A stretch of 63,619 bases of DNA, filler included, from Collodictyon triciliatum (Eukaryota), in NCBI GenBank assembly GCA_043381765.1. It is 7 parts of 7 records of this genome, joined end to end, with 100 filler letters (N's around TTAATTAATTAA, not from the genome) between each part and the next. Parts side by side here need not be neighbours in the genome. Positions count along the whole stretch, not along the records: positions 49,539 to 59,342 come from JBHJMP010002889.1; 6 more parts are not named here. One strand, given 5' to 3'. The notes below the pieces were generated by a model, which saw only the letters and a program-made list of their open reading frames with translations, searched no databases and was not told the origin of the DNA. The position numbers were made by a program, and so were the translations under genes. Positions 38,791 through 59,442 of the stretch are shown in pieces (position 1 is the first letter of the stretch; each line of letters opens with the position of its first letter).

Positions 38791-39935
38791 TGTTGACTTG
38801 ATTGCCTATGCGTTGTTTGTCATGTATAATTGTACAAATCATTCTCTCCCGCTATGACAGATTGGCAATAACACAACCTTATGGATTGACTTTGCCAATA
38901 GTTTCCTATGCACGACACAACAAAAAAAAACAAAAAACAAAAATGATTTGCAGAAAAGAAACATGTCGTCTTTATTTTTTATCTATAGTTTTTTTGTTTT
39001 TCACCGTTTTTTTTTTGCTCACTTCATTTGCTCATCTACACATTTTTGTTGTGCTTTTAATTGGAGTAATTAACGTGAGTTTTAATGCTGTTAAGTCATG
39101 AGATAATATCTCGATATAATCCTTTTATAAACGATATCACCCTTATATATATTCAATGATGATAGTTATATTATTGCACTATTTATCAATAACTAACACG
39201 AAAAAAAGCTGGCGCAAAACACAGTAAGTAGCAATGTTTCAAACTTCTATCCCACTGCTAATATTACATATTAATGAACAGATCCGCATAGAGCTATCCA
39301 TGAAACATACCTCAAGTTAACTAAATCTGTGAGCATATTATTTTGGCATATCCTAATAATAAAATTTCATATAAAACCTTTATTTAAAAATTATAATATG
39401 CTAAACAATTACATTACACAGCCCCTTTATAATATTACATATCTAAGCACAACCGCTCTTAATCAAGCTCAAACAAACCTGAGTAGGTACCTGGAGTGAG
39501 TGTTTCTTCACCAAATATTTTGGTATNNNNNNNNNNNNNNNNNNNNNNNNNNNNNNNNNNNNNNNNNNNNTTAATTAATTAANNNNNNNNNNNNNNNNNN
39601 NNNNNNNNNNNNNNNNNNNNNNNNNNTTTTTCTTTTTCTTTTTCTTTTTCTTTTTCTTTTTCTTTTTCTTTTTCTTTTTCTTTTTCTTTTTCTTTTTCTT
39701 TTTCTTTTTCTTTTTCTTTTTTCTTATCATTTTTTTGATTAGTCCTTCAATTGCTATTTTATTGTTTTTGTCTGTCATCAAGCTAAGTATTTAATTTTTC
39801 ACAAACGAGGGAATAAATAATCTAAAGTGTTTATTTTTGAAAATATTATAAATTTGCTCCTCATTCTGCATCTTGATAGAAAAAATTAAATAGATTAAAC
39901 TGCCGTGTTAAACTGTTATTTTTATTTCCGTTCCT

Positions 39936-45434: not shown

Positions 45435-48400
45435 ATGTTTCGCGGAAAGGCGGGCGACAGTTCCGATGCGCGTTCGGGCCGATCGAAGGACAACAAAGGA
45501 AGCAAAGCAGGATCTGCGGCTGACTCAGACGCATCCAAGAGAAAAGAAGCGGCGGCTGACGGGAATGATGCAGACGAAGGAGGCGATGCGGAGGACGAAT
45601 TGGTGGAGGACATAGTGCAGCTTGTGGATGGCGACTACAGTGTGCAGGTTCACTTGCTCGAGGCTCGTGATTTAAAGCCCAGGTTGGCTCTATTTATGTC
45701 TCAGTCTTTTTCTCTTTTTCTCTTTTTCTCTTCTTTTTAATTTTCTCTTTCTTTGCTCTTTGTTTTCTTATTAATTTTTTTGTCTATTTTTTATGCTTTT
45801 TTGCTCAAAATATTTCATTTTTCTTTTCTTTTTGACTTATACAAGATGGTATGCTTGTTACTTTGTTGACTTATTCATTTATTATTACTAAAAAAACAAT
45901 TTCATAAAATAAAACACATAGAGATATGTCGGGAACGTCGGATCCGATATGCCAAGTGGAAGCCTTCGGTACAAAATACGTCACAAAAGTGAAAAAGAAA
46001 ACCCTCAGTTGTGTGTGGGACCAGACCTTTTTTTACGAAAAACGAGGAGCAAAGGTATTGATTAACTGGCTTTTGTGTATGTGAAGAATTGTCGATAAAG
46101 CTCATATAGAAAAGTGGATAATTACTCATGAGTCGGTTATTATTCTTATTCTTATTATGATTCTTATTCTTATTCTTATTATTATTCTTATTATTATTCT
46201 TATTATTATTCTTATTATTATTCTTATTATTATTCTTATTATTATTCTTATTATTATTCTTATTATTATTCTTATTCTACCTGTGATAGGTTATGGACAT
46301 AGAATGCGCAAAGATAAACGTGTCAGTTTTTGATCATAATGCAATTGGAAGAAATCAATTGATTGGTTCGTATGAACTTGGGATGGGATATGTATACCGT
46401 CAGCCAAATCATGAATTGTGGATGGTTTGGGTCCCTCTAACTGATGTCACAGACAAAAATGAAGGAGTTCAGGTATGACCGAGGGAAATGCTCATTTTAT
46501 TAATTTACATAGATAGATATTTGTAAACAAAGGTTATCCGCAAATAAATTTTAATGTTTGTGCCCGATTATGCAAAAGCGGAGTTGAAGTTTAGAAATTT
46601 CCTTTAAAATATTGACAGGGATATGTAAAATTGTCTGTTGTTGTATTGGGTCCAAATGATGAGATGGTGATTCATACCGAGGAGGAAATCAGAGAACGAG
46701 AAGGCAACCAAAAAGTACTATTGCATGTTCTCCCATCATTACTATATTCTAATGTAATATGATGTATTATATTTAAGAGGTTTCTTTTGAAATGGGCATG
46801 GATAGATTATCATGTCTCCAAAGATTAAGCAAGAAGGCCATTTATTGATGGTTGTCTGCTACAAAGCCGAGTCTCTCCCAAAATTTGATAAATGTATAAG
46901 TTATCTTCATTTTTTGGCACATTCCCATGACATATTGTTTTTATCCTTATATTTATTTGCCCATGAAAAAATTACTAATCCATAAAATAATGTTCACAAG
47001 TTGGAAAAAGCGATCCATTTATATCCGTGCTGTTTGCTGGAAATCCGCCATGCAAAACATCCACAAAAGGTTTTTGCACTTTTTTTCATATTTTCGGCTT
47101 AAACCACATTGTTTTGATTATTTCATTTATTCCTGAGATGGTTTCTCCGTGCAACTCTGATTCTTTTTGGGCGAGTCAAAAGGAAACCCATATTAATGAG
47201 GATATGATGAACTATATCTTCTTTTTTTGTAGAAAAATCTCTAAATCCCGTATGGAACGAAAGGCTAGAAGTTCCTGTCATGCTTCCAATTATGACTGAT
47301 ATGATTGAAATCATACTTTGGGACAGAGAGAAAGTTGGGGCCAATCGCAGAATGGCCACTCTCATCGTTCCATATTCGTCCATTCCGAAGGGAAAAAAGG
47401 GTGATGACGACCGGCAGGAGAAAGCCAAGCCTCGTTGGTATACCCTATATGGTACCTTGTTATTCATCTCATTCTACTTAATATATAACTAAAATCATGT
47501 TAATTGATTAAACCCATTCCCTATTACAGGACCACCGCTGGGCTATTCTGGGAAAGAAGTTGACGACGTCAGAAATGGAAGGTCGGATGGAACCTGCTAT
47601 TACGGAAGACTGCAGCTGAAATTATATGACATTCAAAAGGATGACCCTGAAGTATATCTTATCAAAAGATTTGAATTCTTATCGTCATACGCTCATTTTT
47701 CACCTGAATTCCACAAAGAAGCAAAGTCTTTTAAACTATTTTGTTTATAAATATGACAGAGAACTGTCACCAAGATTGATGTACCTTTGGCTGACTTGAG
47801 ACTGAAGTCAGTGGAATATTTTGTTACATTAGATATATATGATATCGTAGAGTTGCCTTTTGAAGGAGACAAAGTTCACGTAGGGAATTCTTTTGTATAT
47901 GCATGAGTTTACATGCCATTAATTTAATGATAATCCAGTATGTAAGATATCATACTTTCAGTTATGTGTCCTTTATTCTCTTGAGAATATTTGCCCCGTT
48001 TTTTTTTTTTTCATGGTTTTTTTTGAAAAAAAAAAGTTAACGTTGTATTATCCGATTCGAATTTAGGTTGTTTTAAGCTGGGGAGAGCAGCAAATGAAGA
48101 GCGAGACATCTGTTGTCCGAGTAAAGATTTGCTGTCGATTTATGAATTGTAATGATATCCTGTTTAAATTGATTTTTCTTTTTTCCTCTTTTTGTTATTC
48201 TTCTATAACCGAGTTCACATTCTAGAATGGAAAGGCTGTGATTGGTTCCGCCTTCCCAACGATGAAAGCTGATTATCCTGCTGACCCTACTGAATGCCCT
48301 GACATATTTATCTATATCGAAAAGGTTTGAAACATGAAAGTCTCTCAAAAAAAGGACAGGAAGAAGATCTCTACATATGTATGGATACTTCATCCTAATG

Positions 48401-49214
48401 ATATTGTGTGATGATATTCCGCTAGGTCGACATTTTTGAAAATACACTGAGACTGGCATACATTCGTTTCAAAGTAATCGCTCATATGTAACAAGTTGCT
48501 ACATTTTAATTCAAAGACTTTTTTCCTTTTTTTTTAAAAAAAAAATGGATATTGCTTGATTTGGTCAATTATTGAAGAACTATTCTTTTCGAAGGTCGCA
48601 AGTCTGCTTGATTCTTCTGATGGTCCTGATTGGCACCCTCTTAAGGAGGATAAAGTATTTTTATTTCTCTAGATATTGTGCTTAATAGATCTGCTGCGCA
48701 GATATGTATACATGACCTTTTTGATTTTCATATTATTTTATGCATATTTTCCTGAATATTACTAACATAGGTCGTCAATGCTATTCCCATAGGAGAGTAC
48801 CCCGGCAGCGCCTTGATGAAGTAACTATTAATATTTTTCTTTAGTTGCCAAAAAGGTGCTTCAGAACGATTAAAAACCTGTCGTATCAGAATCAACGGAG
48901 GGAAATCAAATGGATTTGTGAAGAGAACGCGGCTAATACCTTGGAAATTGAGGTCATACCTTGTTCGAGCAAACTTTTATCAGGTGATCTAATTACCCAT
49001 TATTAATTGGAATATAGATGCTCTTTTGGCTTCCAATGACTATTTGTAACTGGCACTGTTCTTATCTAAATTTAAATACTGTAATTCATGCATCAAAGGG
49101 ACGAAATCTTCTGGCAGCCGACGAAGATGGCACATCTGACCCATTTATAGTCATGAAAGTAAGCGGCCAAAAATACAACACAAAAACAAGATCGGACACA
49201 TTGTTTCCCATTTG
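45435..49214 (+). CDS. Ferlin-family multi-C2-domain protein, 5' part (cut by scaffold end)
   Basis: YSVQVHLLEARDLKPR|DMSGTSDPICQVE, LIGSYELGMGYVYRQPNHELWMVWVPLTD..GVQ|GYVKLSVVVLGPND, KAESLPKFD, PRWYTLYG|PP..EGTCYYGRL-like segment, YLVRANFYQ|GRNLLAADEDGTSDPF. Confidence 0.9.
46137..46277. repeat. (TTATTATTC)n-type minisatellite in a ferlin intron
   Basis: Direct reading. Confidence 0.9.
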
Positions 49215-50805
49215 GTGAGATTTTTTGACCTAATTTTTTCTTTTATCTCTTTTTTTCTCTTTTTTTCTCTTTTTTTTCTCTTTTTTCTCTCTTTTTTCTC
49301 TTTTTTTCTCTTTTTTTCTCTTTTTTTCTCTTTTTTCTCTTTTTTTCTCTTTTTTTCTCTTTTTTCTCTTTTTTCTCTTTTTTCTCTTTTTTCTCTTTTT
49401 TCTCTTTTTTCTCTTTTTTCTCTTTTTTCTCTTTTTTCNNNNNNNNNNNNNNNNNNNNNNNNNNNNNNNNNNNNNNNNNNNNTTAATTAATTAANNNNNN
49501 NNNNNNNNNNNNNNNNNNNNNNNNNNNNNNNNNNNNNNTTTTTCGTTTTTTGTTTTTCGTTTTTTGTTTTTCGTTTTTTGTTTTTCGTTTTTTTTTTTTC
49601 GTTTTTTGTTTTTCGTTTTTTATTTTTTCGTTTTTCGTTTTATTGTTTTTTTGTTACATACGTCCTGGGGTGATCTCTTCACTCCCCCTTCATTTTTTAA
49701 ATAAAAATAAAGAAAATGAATGATATAACTAGAAGAGTAGTTGCAGCCCACGGTGCTTGTTTTGTGTGAAGGAGTTGCCTGAGGGACAGCTTTCAAACAC
49801 CATGATGAAGGAGCAGAAGGTGACTCCGCAGCACTGGCGCGAACGAATAGATGAAGGGACTGATGTTGAGGAAAACTACTTGCACACAACGATGAGATCT
49901 AAAGTTTGTGTTCAACTTCTATTTGATAAAGAACCCTTTTGTTTTTTGGTTCCTGGGGTGTGTGGAGTGACTGGGCTTGCTTGTCATGAGTCAATTTTCT
50001 AGCAGAGGTCTCGTTCGGCGGACGATGCGGCAGAAGTCCTCTGCAAAAAGAGTAATGGCAATATATGCGAAAAATAGACAAGCGTGTTTTCTCATATTGC
50101 AATTTTTGAAATAGTGTGTGTATGTGTTACTGTTTTTAGAAGAAAAAAAGCAAGTAAATAGAAGCATCGTTTCTCTAGATGAGACCCTAGATTATAAAAG
50201 AACGAATGCATATCCCAAAAGAACACCAAGTTTTTCTTGGACACAGGGAATAAGGTGATTTTCTAAAATAATAATTATAATTATGATTGTCCTGCGCAAC
50301 TTTCGAGGTAATAAAAAAATTACCCAACCCCAATTAATATGTAAATTCCATATTTTCACTACAATTTGACAGAAGCCCCAAAAAGTTTAAACAAAACCAA
50401 TACGGAGCATATAGTCACAGAACTATAGGCACTGAGGGGTTTACTGTGACAATTTTGCTTTTACTTGCCTATTTGTCTCTATCAGTGTCGTCAGAGAAGT
50501 AAAGCTTTCAAAGGAAAAAAAGCATGAGTTGTATTATTTATCCCATGGATTAACCGTAATCAGTAGGTACGAGCTCACGGATGGCTGTGGTTACACACGC
50601 TCGGAGTTGATATCGATGGACATGAAGGATGCATTCAAAATACTTCTTAACTTACACCATGATATATGTGTGACATCTACAGTCAGTCATGAAACAAGTA
50701 ATTGAATGCAATCGTAAATTATATACTTGGTTTCAATAATACATTTCTTGGTCACGTTTTTGTATTTCTTCGGTAATGAACCTACTTAATCATTGATTTT
50801 GGATC

Positions 50806-53800
50806 ATGAAAATTGCGCAATATTATAAAAAAAATTGATTCTACACATTCCTTGTGTCATTATATATGTACCTACCGATGAAAGAGTCCATTGAAAAAAA
50901 AACTAGTGGGATCACCGGAGATAGTAATTCTTCACACGAATATGACCTCCTTGTAAGTCTCTATGAAACTCTCAATGGAGATAACTGGTTCGATAATTCT
51001 GGATGGAAAAACGAAAGCTTAGGAGTTTGCTCTTGGTTTGGGGTGCAATGCCACCCTGGATGCTCAACTGAAGATATGGAGGTTTGATTTGAGATTATAT
51101 ATTTAAAAATTTTTTAATGTCACCCTCACAAGACCAGCCTCTGACGTCTTAGTGCATAACGCCATCTAATTTTATGATTTTGCTGATTTTTCACATTTTT
51201 TTGATAGAGAAATTCATGTGCGGTTACAAACATATCTCTGCAAAATAACAACCTTTCTGGAGACATTGAGAAAGCATCTGAGATTTTCAGCAAATTTAAT
51301 TATCTAATGTCGCTAGACCTTAGTTATAACTCCATCTATGGATTTCTTCCTGATATCAATCTAGCATCTATGGAATATTTAGATCTTCATTTGAATGAAA
51401 TATTTGGAACAATACATGATTTCCAAAGAATACCGAATATCAGGCACCTAAAATTAGATGGCAATCCGCTTAGCGGAACAGTACCTGACTTCTCTGGAAT
51501 TCCGTCAACATCCTATATTTTGATCGGACAAAGCGGACTCATCAGAGGTTTGATTGGGTTAAAAGTCTATGTGTAATAGAAATTTGAATAGCAAGGTACT
51601 ATTTTACATATAAATACATATGGCCGTAGGTACGTTGCCAAATTTTTCTGGTATGCCGATCGCAAGAACTGTCGGAGTCTATGGAGCCGACCTTTTTGGT
51701 AGTGTATTGATAATTCAACATTATGAACGTACCCACATTTCAAAGTCTTGTTTTACGTACTAGGCAGTGTGCCCAATTTCAGCCATATGAAACTTGTCTA
51801 CGATTTATATTTATCCGGGAATAGATTTAGCGGTAATATATATAAAAGTTATCATCGTGTCATCTCTCTATTAGTTGTATTATTTTTTCACGGTATTGTC
51901 ATTTGTTTAGGGTCTCTACCTGACTTCAACAATATCTCAAATGTTGCGTTCATATTTCTCTCAAACAACAATTTGGTTGGTATGTCTTTTTTTTTTTTGT
52001 TGTTGTTGTTATTGTTGTTGTTGAATTATATATTTAAATAGGATATTTAATATTCATTTCGCTTCACTTCTATCACGATGTTATCACAATCATATTATCT
52101 TAGTCTATTACACGACTTGAGTGGTTGTGTGGCCACAAATTCATAAAAAAATTTTTATTACCATCTAATCATACAAACAAAAATTCCCAAGGAACTCTTC
52201 CTGATTTTACTTTCATCCCCAACATTGAAGTCCTCGCCCTTTATGACAATCAAGTGTTAGGTTCGAATAATTTTTAGAGCATAGTTTCATTTTTTTCCTT
52301 CATGATTGGGAATGGTGTCAGTTTCTCTTGTGGCAGTCTTTCAAAAAAGTCACATTTTTCTTAGTATTATGTAATTGAGTAATCAACCATATTTATCAAA
52401 CGCATACGTAGGGTCTCTGGTAGACTTTGTATTTACCCCCAAAATTTCTACGCTCGTTCTTTCGATTAATCAATTGAACGGTAATTTTTTTTCATAATTA
52501 TATATTATTTATACTATCCCGTGTATTTTTATCATACTCTTGGTGTGATTCTCCATTTAAAAAAATGTATAGCTGCATTAATTTGAAGGAATTCTTCCAG
52601 GTAGTATACCCGATTTCGAGAATCTTCCTATTTTACAAGTTTTACATATATCCAACAATAAGCTGTCTGGTAAGACCATTGGCTTTGATGAAATTCAATC
52701 TGTTGATAGAAATTATCCAATTAAAATAACGTTTCATAAAAAGGATCTATCCCTGAGTTTTCAAATCTGAGGTTTTTGTATAGATTGGATGTGTCCAGAA
52801 ATAATCTAATAGGTATTTTGACCGCACATAAATATTGCATCTCTAAAATACTAAAGTGTAATACTGATCACAATAGGTGAACTTCCCTTGCTCTCACAAT
52901 GCGGGTATCTGACACATTTACATTGCTACAGTAACAGAATTTTTGGAACTATCCCAAACTTTACCGACTTGAAGGAAATCGAGGAAGTTATAATGTTTAG
53001 AAACCAACTGTCTGGATCACTACCCATGTTAGAGCTACCTAGACTGAAGGTTTTTGATGTAAGCGATAATATGATATCCGGGGTCATTCCATTTAATTGG
53101 AATATATTATCTATCCAACATCTTGATCTATCAAGAAATAACTTGACAGGGATAATTCCTCTATACTTTCCAAATTTATTCAAGCTTGAGTCCCTCATTC
53201 TCTCCCACAACAATTTTTTTGGAAAAATTCCTTTAGAGTTTTGGAATTTGCCTGAACTGAGATCTATCGACCTAAAGAACAATTCATATTCAGAGGATAT
53301 CGGCGTATTCCTGAATCCGGGTATCGAAAGCTATAATTTTAAGTATGAGAATATTATAATGGACAATAATCACTTCTATGGCAAATTGGATTGGCTGATT
53401 TTTGATTTCGTACCAAATATTAAAGTCCTTAGTTTACGAAATAATCAAATAACAACTCTTGGTGATGTTACAAACCTCCTCAACTGGAAACGAATAGACC
53501 TAACGGGAAATCCCGTGATTGGTAGCATTCCAGAGTCTTATAGTCGATTTATTAAATTGGAATATTTGGGGCTCAAAAACACATCGATGAACCACGGTCA
53601 TGCCAACTTCTTGCCTGATTTTATGAGATACACAAATCCATTTAATTTACAAGACAAAAATAAGTCCTTTATTTGCCCTTCCATAGTCTCAGTTGTGGGA
53701 GCGAATGAAATAGATACTGATTTAGATTCAACCTACTATAACCATACATTTTGTCAATGTCTACCCAACTATTTTGGATTTGGAGAGAAATGTATTCAAT

Positions 53801-55518
53801 GCTCTAGGGAATGTGATTGTTTAGATGGAATTTCATTAAAAAAATGTCATGCTTCTCCTAATGTAATCGACATAAAAAGTATTATCTCCTGTCCGAGACC
53901 AGAATCATGTAACACTATTATTCCAGAAAAGACATCTAATACAAAAAGTATAATGGTTATTTCGAAATATTGCAAAAATGGATATGAAGAACGTGGCTGT
54001 TCAAAGTGCCAGCATGGTTACGGGAGGCAGGGAAGGTCTTGCGTGGAATGCTCTGAACCAACTGTTTATTCAACGATTGTACTTGGGACAATAGGGCTTA
54101 TTTTACTCATTTTTTATCTTTACTACACAGAAACATCCTCTTCAGGTATGTCCTTTTGTTATATATAAAAACATTAATCAAATCATACTTTAGACGTTAT
54201 TAGAAAAAATAATGCGCATACATTTTGAGGCGAAAAAATAGCTGAATTACATGCGAATAGATTATATATAACTGAAATCATCAAATAAAAACTAGGAAAA
54301 CTTCGAATTATGCTGTTTCACATGCAATCATTGTCAATAATTTCGTCTTCTCTAAACCAATCGGACGATACCAACAAATTTGCGGATATTTCTTCGTCAT
54401 TGGGCTCTATCCAATTACCCAATGGTTCATGTATTCTTGGTTCGTCAGATCTTTTTGATTTACTAATTTTCAGCTTCGGGCGAATTCCAATTATCGTATT
54501 GGTTGGATGGGTGGTGTATGCAAAAGGTTCAAGACATATAAAAAATAAGGTATTTTAGTCACATGGTAATTTATGGAATGCCTTTGTATCATCAATCTTA
54601 AGAATATCACAGCTAAATGATATTTTTACATATTAGGTTGTTTTCATCACTCTCAATATGCTTTTTTTGATCTATTATTCAATTGTAAGTGAAGTTTTGG
54701 GTGTTTTTGGATGTACTGTTCATGATGAAGGGCAAGAAAAATGGTATTTAAATTTTGGACCCTGGCTTGAGTGCAGCACAAAATCCCAAGAATACATGAA
54801 GATGGTGTGGTTGTCGTTGCCTGTCTTTATAATTTTTGTTATTGGGCTCCCTATCTATATTTGGTTCAAAATCAATCACGTAAGTGGATACTCAGACTAC
54901 GAATATGAAGCCCGATTTGGATTTTTGTATCTACCGTACAAGCAGGTGCGATTTTGTTGTATATTTGCGTCCGTCATGAAATTACGCTATCAAGTATATT
55001 TACTCATTCCTTTTTTTATAAAACCGAGTAGGATTACAGAAACTGGGAGTTTATTATAATTCTTCGAAGGATAGGGTTTTCTTTCGCAAATAGTATCATC
55101 CCATACACATATCCTTCTGTTTTCTTCCTCGCCATTATCGTTATAATCCAGGTATGTCTATTACTTTGCTGTTTTCAACCAGTTTGTATCAGTCTTTATT
55201 GTAACACCGCGGCCTTTTGTCCTTATATAGACGTCCATATGGGTTCAAGTGAATTGCAATCCTTACAAGAACTCGTTGGAGAATCAAATGGAAATGTCAA
55301 GTCTATATGTGATGTTTTTTTCCTTCTTTATAGCTCTTTTGTCAAGTTTACTTGGCGAACAGGAATGGATAACTGTCCTTTTTATATCAATGAACGCTAT
55401 ATGGATTCTTATATCATTCATCCTCATTTTTTTGATCCCCTTCCTTCGAAATCACAATTTTAAAAGAATATTAATTGAAATGAAAAGAGGCAAGAATTAT
55501 GATTCATACTTGGAGTAA
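50806..55518 (+). CDS. LRR / Cys-rich / TRP-like multipass membrane receptor, 14 exons including seven 69-bp single-LRR exons; in-frame TGA at 50836 in the putative signal region
   Basis: LRRNT cap LVSLYETLNGDNW..W..VCSWFGVQC and plant-type LRRs (LxLxxNxLSGxIP). Exons: to 51081, 51208-51547, seven 69-bp exons, 52877-54145, 54296-54549, 54637-54945, 55032-55151, 55231-55518. Cys-rich CQCLPNYFG..CKNGYEERGCSKCQHGY; TM region RFGFLYLPY..WEFIIILRR..NPYKNSLEN. Confidence 0.9.
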
Positions 55519-55729
55519 AATCCTGGCATCGCCCTAATTTTGGATTTTCTGGAATCCCTACTTTTAAAAAATATATAATAAAATAATACACGCACTCTTT
55601 TCTTCAAAAAAGTATAATATGAATGATGAATGATAAAGAAATAGGCACGAAAAAATGAATAAATCATATGTGTGATTTGCATTGTTCTTGTGCAAGGTAT
55701 CGATAGCATATGTATTTGTATCTAAAAGT

Positions 55730-57081
55730 CGAACCTCGGTGCAAGCCGCGACCTGTCGAAGGCTTTGCAAGTTGCAGCCAGTTCTTCTGGTTCCAACGCT
55801 GGTGCGGAAAACTTGAGTTCCACGTAAGTCCAGGAAGACCCGTGCAAGGAAGCCGCTTGCAAGTCTGTCTGAGCGGACAGTATTTTTGCACGGGGTCGAG
55901 CAAGTCGTATACAACAAGAACAAGTCCCGCAGGCTAACAGATGCGCTCGCCTCCTTCTTGAAAGCGAACAAACTTTGGGAAGAGTCCATCCAATTGCGAT
56001 TACCGGACAGCGAAGGCCTTTGCCTGATTGCCTTCCTCACTGCAGAGAACGCCTGAAAGCTTCTGGAGCTGAAGCAGGTAAGATTGGGCGATATCATAAC
56101 CAGCTTCAGCAGATGTAAACCAACAGAGACCTCGGTGATGCTCTACCAACTACCGCTGGACGTGTGGCCGCAACTCCTTCGTGAGGAGCTGAAGCTGTTC
56201 AGACCGACCCACGTGGACATCAAAAGGACAAAGGCTTCTTCACAGACACAGCCGTGGTGAAGCTTCTTTGTCACAAGAACCAGCTCCCTGCAAAGTTTAC
56301 GGTCACGGGTAAGAAGTGTCCAAAGCGCATCCTCAAAGAGTGTCCGCCAGCCGCGAACAACGAACGACAAGTAAAAGCCCCGCAAAAGAATACACCTGCC
56401 AAGCAGACAAGCAGCAACGGGGCCAAGGAAGCCAAAGCCAGGCAACAACAGAGTCCGCAAGACTCACAGCAGATACGCGCATACAGTAGCAGTGACGGTG
56501 ACATGGAAGGAAATCTCGGTTCCTCTTCAGAATCCTCGCACTCGAGCCCTTCATCGCCAACACCGGACACGCCCGCACATCGCAAGACCCAAGAGCAGCG
56601 CATCTCCAAACCCCGAAAGAAATACCCCTTAAACTACCCATTCAGACTGACGTGAATATGGTTAACATAGGAAGCCTCAAGGCAGTCTTCGTTACTTATC
56701 CGAAAGGATACTCCAAAGCGAAGCCAACACAAGAACAAGCACCCACCAAAGATAGTCCGTTTATCCTGTCCCAGCCCGCCGCACCGAGAACCAAGGAGCA
56801 AGAGCAGACAGAAGTCGAATCCAAGCTTAGAAACTCCACACACCAAAGACAGTTCGAGCATGCAGGAGTGTATGTTTCTAAAATCACAAACGCGTATCCA
56901 TACTCCAGTTAAGCAAAGTCCACTGCCGGCTACGCATGGTTCCGAAACCAGGGGACGGTCAAGCGTCACTTCCGATAATACCAGACAAACAACGATGTTT
57001 CTCTTTTTGTCAGTGTCGCCCAGCAAGAAACGCAAGGAAAGTGACCCGCTGTCCCCTCAAAAGACTCATCTTGTGGAATGA
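55730..57081 (+). mobile_element. Decayed non-LTR retrotransposon ORF1 (L1/Tx1-like) relic; no ORF2 seen
   Basis: GC-rich, intronless. Reads ..LIAFLTAENA*KLLELKQV..TSVMLYQLPLDVWPQLLREELKLF../GFFTDTAVVKL..QLPAKFTVTGK followed by a disordered tail ending KRKESDPLSP. Stop at 56054 and frameshifts at ~56230 and beyond. Confidence 0.5.
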
Positions 57082-57696
57082 AATAGGATGTAAACCTTGT
57101 CTGAGATAGATGGTTGAAAGGACTCGTCGGAATCGATTTGAGAAGTAACAGCCATGTGGGGTGCTCTCATTGACCCGACAACTATATCTGCTCTTCTGTC
57201 AGTCTCGAACACAACCAGAAACCGCGTTGGAGCTGATTCACCTCGGGCAGAATAGTCTGCGTGTGAGAACGCTTCCTTTTATATCTTGTTTTTTCTCTTT
57301 TCATTTCCTTCCAAAACAAAAAAACTCCAACCACACAATCCGGGGTTTTCCACTGTCTCGTCCAGAACTCATTTTTGTCCTAGAGGCGAAGGCAGTTTCC
57401 TCGGCTTTGTTTTCTTCGAACTCATCATAAGCATAGAAACGAATGAAGAAGGATACTCCAGAGCCCTTATCACACAGCTCGGCACACCACACCATTCGCT
57501 CTCCACAACTTGTCATCCGAAAGTCACAGACATCAATAAATGCGCCCACACTCGAAAGTGTAGACAAATAACACAATAACCAGGCAGAAACATACAAAAC
57601 CAAAAAGCAAAGAGCGGATTTTACTGAGTCGTTTTCACGCCAGCGCGAACCACAACAAAAACCAACCAAAGCGCCACAACCCAAACACACAGGCCC

Positions 57697-59149
57697 ATGT
57701 CGCAGCCCAAGGACGACGAATCTCGGGCACAGCGCAGCATGTCGAAGCCGAGCGCTCTTGGGACTCTCTACACACAAGAAGACGAAGGCGAAGAGGGCGA
57801 CTTTTACGACGATGATTCCAGCGGCTCCGATCAAGACGCCAGCCCGAGTGTGCGAAGGCCGCTTCCCCAACCCACGGCCGAGTTTCAGCCGCTCATCGAG
57901 GCGATCAATCCGGCCCGCTACGGAGCCATTGCCGAGGACGAAGAGGAGGACGAAGGGGAGGAGCCCGAAACTGCTTTGCTGGATGTCCCGAGAGACCAGA
58001 AGCCAAAGCCGGCCTCGTTTGCCTCGTCCAAAGGCGCTCAGACGCCGGGCAAAAATGCCGCAGCTCGCTCGGTAAGTCTGCAGGCTTCGATCGGCAGCGC
58101 GGCAAATGAAGCGGCGGCTTCGTCCTCTGCTGCAAAGGCTGCGTCTGTTGGGCGTGCAGGCGCTTTGCAGGGTGCCCAAGGGAAGACCGTGAATGCCTCT
58201 GCCTCGAAAGGTGATGCGGCCAAGGAAAAGGGCATGGGTGCTGCGCCTGCGGACGAGACGCTCAAGAAGAAGAGGAGGAAGAAAAAGGATTTGATTGGTG
58301 TCAATCTGACCCTGTGTAAATACGACTCGGGTAGGACACTGCGACGGACTATTCATCATCACACATACTATCGGGTCTCTGTATCTATTGAATTTTGTAT
58401 GGTTTTCTTTTCCAATTGATTCGCAGTGGTGGGGGGTTTTTTTTATCTCCCTCGACAATGACACAGTGAGAGAGTGCATTTCATGCTCTAAAACAAAGGT
58501 TGCGCCAATCAGTACGCAGGTGTATCGCCGATATGGGTTGGAGGGAAGTTGGAGATGATGAAGACTGGGTTATATTTTGGACTGATTCCTCTGTCTCGGT
58601 AGAGCGCTGCATGTCCTTGAAAAGATACCAGGTATATTATGTCATTCATAAAATCATGCTTGAAAATGTTTATTATTTAATATTTTGTGTACAGCGCAGT
58701 GCTTGTATTTATGAAGGTCACATGAAAACACAGAAAATCAATCATTTCCCTGGGACGATTGAAATATCAAGGAAGGCTAATATGGCTCGAAATCTAAGGA
58801 GAATGTACAAACACTTTCCAGATGATTATGACATTACTCCAAAAACTTGGGTTTTACCCCAAGAGTAAGAGAACTTATATCATTTACTTTACAATCCCAT
58901 CAGGGGTGTGTCAAAATTATCATTTTACTGCTTTCCCTTTGATTTTTCGTCATTAAAATAAAGACTTTATTTATATAGCCTCGAATCAATTCTTTTATCG
59001 TGAAATTCTTTATGAATACTTCATATCTACACGAATATATGTGCAGGATGACAGAGTTTAAGAAAGTTCTAAAGAGAAATCGAAACCGAACCTTCATTTT
59101 GAAACCCGATGCGGGTGCCCAAGGCCGAGGGATTTATTTGGTTCGCAAG
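57697..59149 (+). CDS. Tubulin polyglutamylase TTLL6/TTLL13-like, 5' part (cut by scaffold end)
   Basis: VNLTLCKYDS|VRRC..GWREVGDDEDWVIFWTDSSVSVERCMSLKRYQ|KINHFPG..RKANMARNLRRM..PKTWVLP|..FILKPDAGAQGRGIYL. Confidence 0.92.
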
Positions 59150-59442
59150 GTTGTTTCTTTTCTGTGAGCCATCATAATATTGCTGGCCTTTTGTTTGTTT
59201 TGTTTGTTTTGTTTGTTTTGTTTATTGTTTTTGTTTGTTTTTGTATGTTTTTGTATGTTTTTGTATGTTTTTGTATGTTTTTGTATGTTTTTGTATGTTT
59301 TTGTATGTTTTTGTATGTTTTTGTATGTTTTTGTATGTTTTTNNNNNNNNNNNNNNNNNNNNNNNNNNNNNNNNNNNNNNNNNNNNTTAATTAATTAANN
59401 NNNNNNNNNNNNNNNNNNNNNNNNNNNNNNNNNNNNNNNNNN

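What the first reader, a model, noticed from the sequence alone, without database searches (positions are those of the whole stretch)
51630..52812. Seven consecutive 69-bp, phase-symmetric exons, each encoding one LRR: candidate exon-cassette receptor diversification system
Seen: exons 51630-51698, 51764-51832, 51911-51979, 52192-52260, 52412-52480, 52601-52669 and 52744-52812 are all exactly 69 bp (23 aa). Each intron splits the same Gly codon in phase 1, so any cassette can be skipped, duplicated or swapped in frame. The scaffold is conserved (G-S/T-L/I/V-P-x-F..N..L) while the beta-strand face differs in each: ARTVGVYG, VYDLYLSG, VAFIFLSN, IEVLALYD, ISTLVLSI, LQVLHISN, LYRLDVSR. The flanking LRRs (51208-51547, 52877 onward) are in long exons, so modularity is confined to one block of the ectodomain. 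Known: one-repeat-per-exon LRR genes occur in Ectocarpus ROCO genes, Tetrahymena LRR genes and plant ERECTA. Inference: a variable-region/constant-region surface receptor family diversified by exon shuffling or alternative splicing, perhaps for prey, pathogen or self recognition.
Basis: partly seen in the sequence, partly recalled or inferred. Interest (0 to 1): 0.8.

Follow-up and report, generated by a model that had tools for sequence, protein, structure and literature searches.

The report
One-repeat-per-exon LRR membrane protein gene
Seven consecutive 69-base exons each encode one leucine-rich repeat of an expressed protist membrane-protein gene, most likely an old trace of how the repeat array grew and not a working system for making receptor variants.

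Summary
The seven exons are each exactly 69 nt, have GT..AG borders and split a Gly codon after its first base. A spliced, polyadenylated cDNA-like contig confirms 7 of the 8 introns around them, and its length fits inclusion of all seven exons.

The gene spans at least 50338-55518 in 16 exons. It encodes a signal-peptide-like segment, LRRNT_2, about 21 LRRs, a Cys-rich stalk and a multi-pass membrane domain with no Pfam or solved-structure match.

The diversification reading is not supported by what could be tested:
- The seven repeats are old: mean 34% amino-acid and 45% nucleotide identity, about the same as to the intronless flanking repeats.
- The introns share nothing and hold no relic LRR exons on either strand.
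- The window holds one family gene.
- 85 isoform pairs of the closest relatives (Diphylleia rotans transcripts) show no 23-residue cassette difference.

What is supported is a large, divergent family (18 D. rotans Trinity genes) with variable LRR number and apparently conserved intron positions. This is a new member of the known one-LRR-per-exon kind (Ectocarpus, Tetrahymena).

The parts
50338..50498 (+). First coding exon as far as it can be read, holding the signal-peptide-like hydrophobic segment. The 5' limit is unknown: an in-frame stop lies at 50335-50337 and there is no in-frame ATG in this exon.
   Evidence: (joint 50498/50567)
50567..50697 (+). Exon 2, an N-terminal conserved segment that is also present in the D. 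rotans relatives.
50885..51081 (+). Exon 3, holding the LRRNT_2 cap.
   Evidence: PF08263, E 6.4e-5, 23.6 bits against a cut-off of 20.7
51208..51547 (+). 340-nt exon with the first LRR cap and LRR units 1-4, with no introns between them. It ends with the first base of a split Gly codon.
51630..51698 (+). 69-nt exon, LRR unit 5.
   Evidence: 33.3 bits
51764..51832 (+). 69-nt exon, LRR unit 6.
51911..51979 (+). 69-nt exon, LRR unit 7. The 212-nt intron after it holds a T-run and a (TTG)n simple repeat.
52192..52260 (+). 69-nt exon, LRR unit 8.
52412..52480 (+). 69-nt exon, LRR unit 9.
52601..52669 (+). 69-nt exon, LRR unit 10.
52744..52812 (+). 69-nt exon, LRR unit 11.
52877..54145 (+). 1269-nt exon with about ten further LRR units, the Cys-rich stalk and the first membrane helix. 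It ends in phase 1 in a Gly codon.
54296..54549 (+). Membrane-domain exon.
   Evidence: (joints seen in X1 and X2)
54637..54945 (+). Membrane-domain exon with a conserved Cys-containing loop.
55032..55151 (+). Membrane-domain exon.
55231..55597 (+). Last exon. The stop codon is at 55516-55518 and the 3' UTR runs to a poly(A) addition site near 55597.
   Evidence: stop; table 7 (loose end of A's behind 55597)

Best explanation
This is one expressed gene for a multi-pass membrane protein with a large N-terminal LRR ectodomain. Its central LRRs (units 5-11 of about 21) are still encoded one per 69-nt exon, with each intron splitting the Gly codon that opens the repeat.

The most likely history is that the LRR array of this family grew by tandem duplication of a unit made of one 69-nt exon plus its intron. 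Because both borders are phase 1, every duplication or deletion kept the reading frame. Introns were later lost from the flanks of this gene, and from different places in its relatives. The seven exons are therefore an old footprint of how the array was built. They are spliced constitutively today.

Shown: the exon structure, the splicing, inclusion of all seven exons in the one contig that covers the block, the age of the repeats, and the absence of shuffling debris.

Inferred: growth by exon duplication, differential intron loss, and a role as a surface binding protein (ligand unknown) that signals or anchors through its conserved membrane domain.
For: Exon anatomy and splicing:
- All eight block-bounding introns are GT..AG and phase 1 in a Gly codon.
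- A spliced contig with a poly(A) loose end includes all seven exons.

Age of the repeats:
- Pairwise identity among the seven units averages 34% for amino acids and 45% for nucleotides. Against the intronless 23-residue units it is 31% and 42.5%.
- The introns share no repeats.
- An HMM of the units found no extra LRR in any intron, on either strand, or elsewhere in the window. The best score outside the gene was 8.0 bits, E 0.62, against 29.6-37.9 bits for the true 23-residue units it was built from (weaker partial hits also occur inside the LRR exons).

Intron positions in the relatives:
- Truncated D. rotans isoforms part from their full-length partners at places that line up with window introns in 13 of 15 pairs examined.
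- Two distinct sites in two genes lie directly after the Gly of an LRR (P0321 after residue 367, P0277 after residue 273). The P0277 site falls where the window gene has no intron.
- This fits old LRR-boundary introns that were lost differentially.

Selection:
- 8 of 10 listed differences between the window and the transcript contigs are synonymous, and none lies in the block.

Family:
- LRR-domain length varies among the relatives while the terminal units stay collinear.
Against: - No genome of this organism or of D. rotans was available, so intron positions in the relatives are inferred from isoform break points, not read from DNA.
- Contigs drop rare variants, so low-level exon skipping is not excluded.
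- 23-residue units are too short for a reliable tree, so duplication of exon-plus-intron units cannot be told with certainty from repeated intron gain at the G|G site of the conserved Gly codon.
- No in-frame ATG precedes the signal-peptide-like segment, so the 5' end of the model, or the coding status of this copy, is not settled.
Confidence: 0.75

Rival explanations
1. The block is an active diversification device. The symmetric 69-nt exons are skipped in combinations (cassette splicing), or are being reshuffled among paralogues, to give ectodomains of different length and specificity, as proposed for brown-algal ROCO genes.
For: - Phase 1-1 symmetry makes any skip or duplication frame-neutral.
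- The family is large and differs in LRR number in D. rotans.
- The central units show no positional orthology to D. rotans units, while the terminal ones do.
- Precedents exist in Ectocarpus (PMC3341825 section 15 read; PMC11378527 passages read).
Against: - The one contig across the block holds all seven exons, and no skipping joint is listed in two runs.
- 85 D. rotans isoform pairs show no 23-residue-multiple indel.
- The repeats are only 22-52% identical to each other.
- There are no relic or reverse-strand LRR exons and no intron similarity. Those are the hallmarks reported for shuffling loci in Ectocarpus.
- None of the 10 listed strain differences falls in the block.
Confidence: 0.08
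2. The introns were gained independently, after the LRR array already existed as continuous coding sequence. Each was inserted at the G|G proto-splice site offered by the conserved Gly codon. On this view the equal exon length only reflects the repeat period.
For: - All eight exon ends are xxG|G.
- The introns have unrelated sequences and lengths of 64-212 nt.
- The neighbouring LRRs, with the same Gly, lack introns.
Against: - Eight independent insertions at the same base of the same codon in consecutive repeats is unparsimonious.
- D. rotans isoform break points suggest introns at the same Gly position in two other family genes, and at five non-LRR positions shared with the window gene. That points to old introns.
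- The same exon register and split-codon geometry is described for Ectocarpus type I LRR exons (PMC3341825 section 15; PMC11378527 passage).
Confidence: 0.12
3. This copy is a transcribed pseudogene or a mis-modelled gene, because it has no ATG before its signal-peptide-like segment.
For: An in-frame stop lies at 50335-50337. There is no in-frame ATG until exon 2, and the transcript contig is continuous over 50300-50498.
Against: - 1183 codons stay open across 16 exons.
- 8 of 10 strain differences are synonymous.
- All splice sites are intact and in use.
- A further upstream exon spliced to an acceptor inside 50338-50440, or a non-AUG start, would solve the problem.
Confidence: 0.05

Closest known systems
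Ectocarpus / brown-algal 'type I LRR exons' of ROCO and other LRR genes (Zambounis et al. 2012, PMC3341825, section 15 read; Teng et al. 2024, PMC11378527, passages read)
   Same: - One LRR per exon, of constant length.
- The exon starts at the Gly of GxxPxx...LxxLxLxxNxLx.
- Teng et al. state that nt 3-71 of the 72-nt exon hold the whole codons. That implies 2 nt at the exon start and 1 nt at its end belong to split codons, which is the geometry seen here. This is my inference; they label it 'phase 2'.
- The LRRs are plant-like.
   Different: - The exon is 69 nt (23 residues) here, against 72 nt (24).
- Only 7 of about 21 repeats are single-exon here.
- There are no intronic or reverse-strand relic exons.
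- No alternative isoforms were seen.
- There is no ROC-COR domain. The C-terminus is instead a Cys-rich stalk plus a multi-pass membrane domain.
Tetrahymena 90-bp-exon LRR gene arrays (Xiong et al. 2019, PMC6564038, abstract and passages read)
   Same: Tandem arrays of exactly equal-length LRR exons with a uniform intron phase, read there as clonal expansion and exon shuffling.
   Different: - The exons are 90 nt, and true phase 2 (two bases of the junction codon come from the upstream exon and one from the downstream exon).
- There are thousands of young genes, with repeat-element association.
- Here there is one gene in the window with old, diverged units.
Vertebrate glycoprotein-hormone receptor / LGR genes (as cited in a passage of PMC11378527; otherwise recalled)
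   Same: An LRR ectodomain encoded largely one repeat per in-phase exon, followed by a multi-pass membrane domain.
   Different: - The membrane domain here gave no Pfam 7tm hit.
- It gave no Foldseek match at E <= 0.001, and the GPCR rows there have TM-scores of 0.11-0.22.
- The membrane domain here is split over five exons.
- There is no evidence of homology.
Plant LRR receptor-like proteins and kinases (LRRNT_2 plus plant-specific LRRs; ERECTA's one-LRR-per-exon structure is recalled, not checked)
   Same: - LRRNT_2 is above Pfam's cut-off and LRR_1/4/8 match.
- Many plant RLP/RLK proteins appear among the LRR-only hits.
   Different: - The repeat is 23 residues, not 24.
- There is no kinase.
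- The protein has a Cys-rich stalk and about 7-9 membrane helices instead of a single pass.
Diphylleia rotans LRR / Cys-rich / multi-TM family (EukProt transcripts P0001-P0004, P0122-P0125 and others)
   Same: Same full architecture, 30-40% identity over 89-100% of the 425-residue long-exon query for six EukProt transcripts, with conserved Cys-rich and membrane-domain motifs. Isoform break points coincide with window intron positions.
   Different: - It is a different organism.
- The number of LRRs differs.
- No genomic sequence is available, so the exon structure is not directly known.

Membership tests
LRR proteins with a plant-type N-terminal cap (Pfam LRRNT_2 + LRR_1/LRR_4/LRR_8) | Matches above Pfam gathering scores | tested here: met
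   LRRNT_2 23.6 bits (cut-off 20.7). On the long exon, LRR_4 69.9, LRR_1 54.9 and LRR_8 57.5 bits.
One-LRR-per-exon symmetric exon arrays (Ectocarpus type I LRR exon kind) | Each LRR in a single exon of constant length with the same intron phase on both sides | tested here: met
   for 7 consecutive repeats. The other repeats, about 14, lie in two long exons.
One-LRR-per-exon symmetric exon arrays (Ectocarpus type I LRR exon kind) | Exon register beginning at the Gly of GxxPxx | tested here: met
   column table, compared with the consensus given in PMC3341825 section 15.
One-LRR-per-exon symmetric exon arrays (Ectocarpus type I LRR exon kind) | 72-nt (24-residue) exon | tested here: not met
   69 nt / 23 residues.
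One-LRR-per-exon symmetric exon arrays (Ectocarpus type I LRR exon kind) | Signs of active shuffling: relic or reverse-strand LRR exons in introns, near-identical exons | tested here: not met
   (no hit in introns or on the minus strand). (22-52% identity among the seven single-exon units). (no intron repeats).
One-LRR-per-exon symmetric exon arrays (Ectocarpus type I LRR exon kind) | Alternative transcripts with different LRR exon sets | tested here: inconclusive
   One search gives only contigs of two runs. All seven exons are included and no skipping joint is listed; none in 85 D. rotans isoform pairs.
ROCO proteins | ROC-COR GTPase tandem after the LRRs | tested here: not met
   Searches show no such Pfam domain. 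The C-terminus is a Cys-rich stalk plus membrane helices.
[quoted passage not shown] | Exactly 90-nt exons separated by phase-2 introns | tested here: not met
   69 nt, phase 1.
LRR-containing GPCRs (LGR / glycoprotein hormone receptors) | Rhodopsin-type 7TM domain | tested here: inconclusive
   No Pfam family on P0266 at E <= 10. Foldseek gave no match at E <= 0.001. The best VIA-align Z was 7.4 (Hrd1), below the level that is meaningful for helical bundles.
Diphylleia-type LRR / Cys-rich / multi-TM family (unnamed) | Collinear LRRNT, LRR array, conserved Cys-rich motif block, and conserved membrane domain | tested here: met
   19 of the best 150 representatives cover the query through the Cys-rich part and the first membrane helix.

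The most novel reading that the evidence does not exclude
In a little-studied predatory-flagellate lineage related to Diphylleia, a family of LRR / Cys-rich / multi-pass membrane receptors uses its frame-neutral 69-nt exons as splice cassettes, or as recombination units among paralogues. This would tune ectodomain length and specificity for prey or microbe recognition. It would be an independent, membrane-anchored counterpart of the brown-algal ROCO exon-shuffling system, and its membrane domain would be of a fold not yet solved.
Probability: 0.07. Interest if true: 0.7.

Novelty: new member of a known kind. Interest (0 to 1): 0.3.

Why it matters
The gene adds a further eukaryotic lineage, and a new protein architecture (LRR ectodomain on a conserved multi-pass membrane domain of unknown fold), to the short list of one-LRR-per-exon genes. 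The exon register and split-codon geometry match the Ectocarpus type I LRR exon. That bears on whether such exons are ancient or arise repeatedly at the conserved Gly codon.

It also flags an uncharacterised, expanded receptor-like family in collodictyonid-type protists. These could be surface recognition molecules, but nothing here shows somatic or splicing-based diversification.

Tried and rejected
- Whole genome of the window: not held.
- The look-up of sequencing runs: no RNA holder is listed on record. The three rows are marked 'RNA? (a guess)'. I treat X1 and X2 as cDNA-derived only because their contigs lack 14 GT..AG introns and carry a poly(A) loose end, plus loose ends that I recall as a template-switch oligo. 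X3 laid nothing.
- Exon skipping: no skipping joint is listed, but only contigs were laid. This is not proof of absence.
- tblastn of four D. rotans proteins against the window: only this gene was found.
- Metagenome scans: an alignment query found no relative. The P0127 query found only a weak 33% LRR match, L001, which I did not use.
- Membrane domain:
  - no Pfam family;
  - phmmer against PDB gave one row at E 0.8;
  - Foldseek against PDB gave nothing at E <= 0.001;
  - VIA-align wide gave a best Z of 7.4 to Hrd1, which is not meaningful for a helical bundle;
  - The search for homologous proteins with P0266 gave no hit in the 176-560 residue range;
  - Atlas feature hits (0.91-0.95) were to unnamed eukaryote clusters, a few members of which carry PF06011 TRP (12-13%) or Ephrin_rec_like. 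These are leads only.
- Positional orthology of the units to D. rotans units is weak because the units are short.
- Earlier findings of this scan: none for this genome or sequence. One unrelated rotifer finding turned up and was not used.
- Supplementary tables of PMC3341825, PMC11378527 and PMC6564038 were not seen. They may hold exon-phase and locus lists that bear on the comparison.
Full report
**Observation**

The window is eukaryotic DNA of low G+C. It holds 1320 N in short masked runs, none of them inside the gene. At the coordinates given, all seven exons are exactly 69 nt. Each follows an AG and precedes a GT. Joined, they give an open frame of seven 23-residue leucine-rich repeats. 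The six internal introns are 65, 78, 212, 151, 120 and 74 nt, and the two flanking ones are 82 and 64 nt. All eight split a Gly codon after its first base.

**Transcript evidence**

Two coded public runs hold the locus (the tool only guesses that they are RNA). Laid on 50300-55600, their contigs skip 14 GT..AG introns. They carry a poly(A) loose end behind 55597, and loose ends that I recall as a template-switch oligo, so I read them as cDNA.
- One 2540-nt contig of X1 spans the block, and 7 of the 8 block introns are listed as joints.
- The 51979/52192 joint is missing because the tool skipped the simple repeat at 51972-52030.
- The contig has exactly 480 nt between window positions 51545 and 52872. 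That is 2 + 483 - 5, so all seven exons are in and that intron is out (my arithmetic).
- No exon-skipping joint is listed. Contigs cannot show rare forms.

**The gene**

From the joints, the gene has at least 16 exons (50338-55518) and 1183 open codons. It encodes:
- a signal-peptide-like hydrophobic segment;
- a short conserved N-terminal piece;
- an LRRNT_2 cap;
- about 21 LRRs, of which units 5-11 are the seven exons;
- a Cys-rich stalk;
- seven strongly hydrophobic segments, with perhaps two weaker ones.

The 340-nt exon 51208-51547 holds units 1-4. The 1269-nt exon 52877-54145 holds about ten more units, the stalk and the first membrane helix. tblastn with four relatives found no second family gene in the window, and no whole genome is held.

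One oddity remains. An in-frame stop lies at 50335-50337, and there is no in-frame ATG before the signal-peptide-like segment, although the contig is continuous there.

**Relatives**

The long exon finds tens of thousands of generic LRR proteins (54,493 at E <= 0.001). Only 19 of the best 150 representatives also cover the Cys-rich part and the first membrane helix.
- 17 of these 19 are EukProt transcripts that the tool names Diphylleia rotans.
- The other 2 are short metagenome ORFs at 46% and 53% identity.
- Together with P0002, the D. rotans proteins come from 18 distinct Trinity genes.

A PP2C gene elsewhere in the window also has as its best hit a EukProt Trinity transcript, at 36% identity (its species was not looked up). 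The 30-40% identity of the LRR gene to its six EukProt relatives is therefore not unusual for this pair of organisms.

The distance from the LRRNT motif to the Cys-rich motif is 584 residues here. In the D. rotans genes it is 293, 601, 627, 699, 751-764 and 859-863, so LRR number varies in the family. Units 14-17 find their collinear partners in P0277, and units 16-17 in P0265. The central units do not find collinear partners, though units this short give a weak test.

**Tests of the diversification idea**

1. Age of the repeats. The seven single-exon units are 22-52% identical to each other (mean 34% amino acid, 45% nucleotide). Against the intronless 23-residue units the figures are 31% and 42.5%. 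They are old.
2. Shuffling debris. An HMM built from eleven units was searched against all six frames of the whole window. It scored the true 23-residue units at 29.6-37.9 bits (weaker partial hits also occur inside the LRR exons). It found nothing in any intron or on the minus strand, and nothing above 8.0 bits (E 0.62) outside the gene. The introns share no repeats. In Ectocarpus, relic and reverse-strand LRR exons inside introns, and recombined near-identical paralogues, are the evidence for shuffling (PMC3341825, section 15 read).
3. Splicing. The transcript contig includes all seven exons.
4. Relatives' isoforms. I compared 16 multi-member 90% clusters of D. rotans, 57 proteins and 85 pairs. 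I left out two singleton clusters, the two metagenome clusters and a 55-residue JGI member. No internal indel was 23 residues or a multiple. Differences were alternative or truncated C-termini and small indels of 1, 5, 9+5 and 12 residues.
5. Polymorphism. Of the 10 listed differences between the window and the contigs, none lies in the block (1.4 would be expected if they were spread evenly) and 8 are synonymous.

**Where the introns come from**

Truncated D. rotans isoforms, most simply intron-retaining transcripts, part from their full-length partners at places that align with window introns in 13 of 15 pairs examined.
- Directly after the Gly of an LRR: three pairs, two distinct sites in two genes. 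The P0277 site is at a repeat boundary where the window gene has no intron.
- After the conserved ...DKV: 2 pairs.
- After ...YK(E/Q): 3 pairs.
- After ...IQ: 3 pairs.
- After ...SSSG: 1 pair.
- After the LRRNT: 1 pair.
- A fourteenth pair differs by a 12-residue deletion that starts at an LRR Gly.

The two metagenome ORFs also run out just after the ...S(S/T)SG site. These are inferences from proteins, not from DNA. They suggest that the intron positions, including phase-1 Gly introns at LRR boundaries, predate the split of these lineages and were lost differentially.

The most economical reading is that the array grew by duplication of a 69-nt exon together with its intron, and that this gene keeps seven such units. 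Independent intron gain at the G|G of the Gly codon remains a lesser possibility.

**The membrane domain**

An AlphaFold2 model of P0266 was built with 20 aligned family members. P0266 is the D. rotans membrane part without the first helix. The model is confident (mean pLDDT 83.8, pTM 0.79) and consists of long helices plus a small three-stranded loop bearing conserved Cys. It has:
- no Pfam family;
- no sequence relative in the PDB;
- no Foldseek match at E <= 0.001;
- only Z 7.4 by VIA-align, below what is meaningful for helical bundles.

Atlas feature hits point to unnamed protist clusters. What the protein binds, and how it signals, is unknown. A surface recognition role is inferred from the architecture only.

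**Comparison with known cases**

One-LRR-per-exon arrays are described in several places:
- Ectocarpus ROCO and other LRR genes: 72-nt type I exon starting at the Gly of GxxPxx, with shuffling and alternative splicing (PMC3341825 section 15; PMC11378527 passages).
- Tetrahymena: 90-nt exons, phase 2 (PMC6564038 abstract and passages).
- Gonadotropin receptors, as cited in PMC11378527.

The present exons share the Ectocarpus register. By my reading of 'nt 3-71 encode the whole codons', they also share its split-codon geometry. They differ in length (69 nt), in lacking shuffling debris, and in the protein they belong to.

**Verdict**

This is a new member of a known kind, of modest interest.

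Noticed in passing
window 50300-50500: The signal-peptide-like segment has no in-frame ATG upstream. An in-frame TAA lies at 50335-50337, and the first in-frame ATGs are in exon 2. The transcript contig is continuous here and extends 464 nt further upstream of 50300. Possible explanations are an unseen upstream exon spliced to an internal acceptor, a non-AUG start, or start-codon loss.
   Followed up: partly
window 52586-52600: The last 15 nt of the intron before exon 52601 read in frame as a second 'G-I-L-P' directly ahead of the exon's own 'G-S-I-P-D-F'. This may be a remnant of a shifted 3' splice site or a small duplication of the exon start.
   Followed up: no
window 53831-53837: One X1 contig carries an extra A after 53837, in a run of A's, which would shift the frame. 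The X2 contig does not carry it. It is probably a homopolymer or assembly error.
   Followed up: no
window 9803-9902, 19715-19814, 29620-29719, 39527-39626, 49439-49538, 59343-59442: Pairs of 44-N runs, each pair separated by 12 bases, recur about every 9.9 kb. Larger N runs lie at 18230-18780 and 23730-23970. The regular spacing looks like masking or scaffolding, not biology.
   Followed up: no
window 9138-9800, 13100-13600, 16100-17600, 22100-22500, 25200-25700, 45900-46300, 49140-49700: Intergenic and intronic DNA is full of long simple repeats (CTT/TTC-type, poly-Asn/Lys-coding AAT/AAC runs, CA/GT-rich runs).
   Followed up: no
window 10588-11667 (-): A PP2C-type phosphatase ORF (PF00481 on its hits). 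Its best database hit is again a EukProt Trinity transcript, at 36% identity and 100% coverage.
   Followed up: partly
window 56000-58400: A stretch with higher G+C (0.51 over 56001-58000, against about 0.35 around it) and long overlapping ORFs on both strands, directly downstream of the LRR gene. It was not examined.
   Followed up: no
proteins P0127 and P0135 (metagenome ORFs): Both ORFs end a few residues after the ...S(S/T)SG site where the window gene has an intron. P0127 begins with a Phe-rich stretch directly before the Gly of an LRR, at a repeat boundary where the window gene has no intron; this would fit a polypyrimidine tract and acceptor there. It is inferred from the protein only.
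   Followed up: partly
D. rotans P0270 against P0003: These are two 97.6%-identical transcripts, Trinity g1 and g2. They differ by a 12-residue deletion that starts exactly at the Gly of an LRR, as an alternative acceptor 36 nt downstream or an allelic deletion would give.
   Followed up: partly
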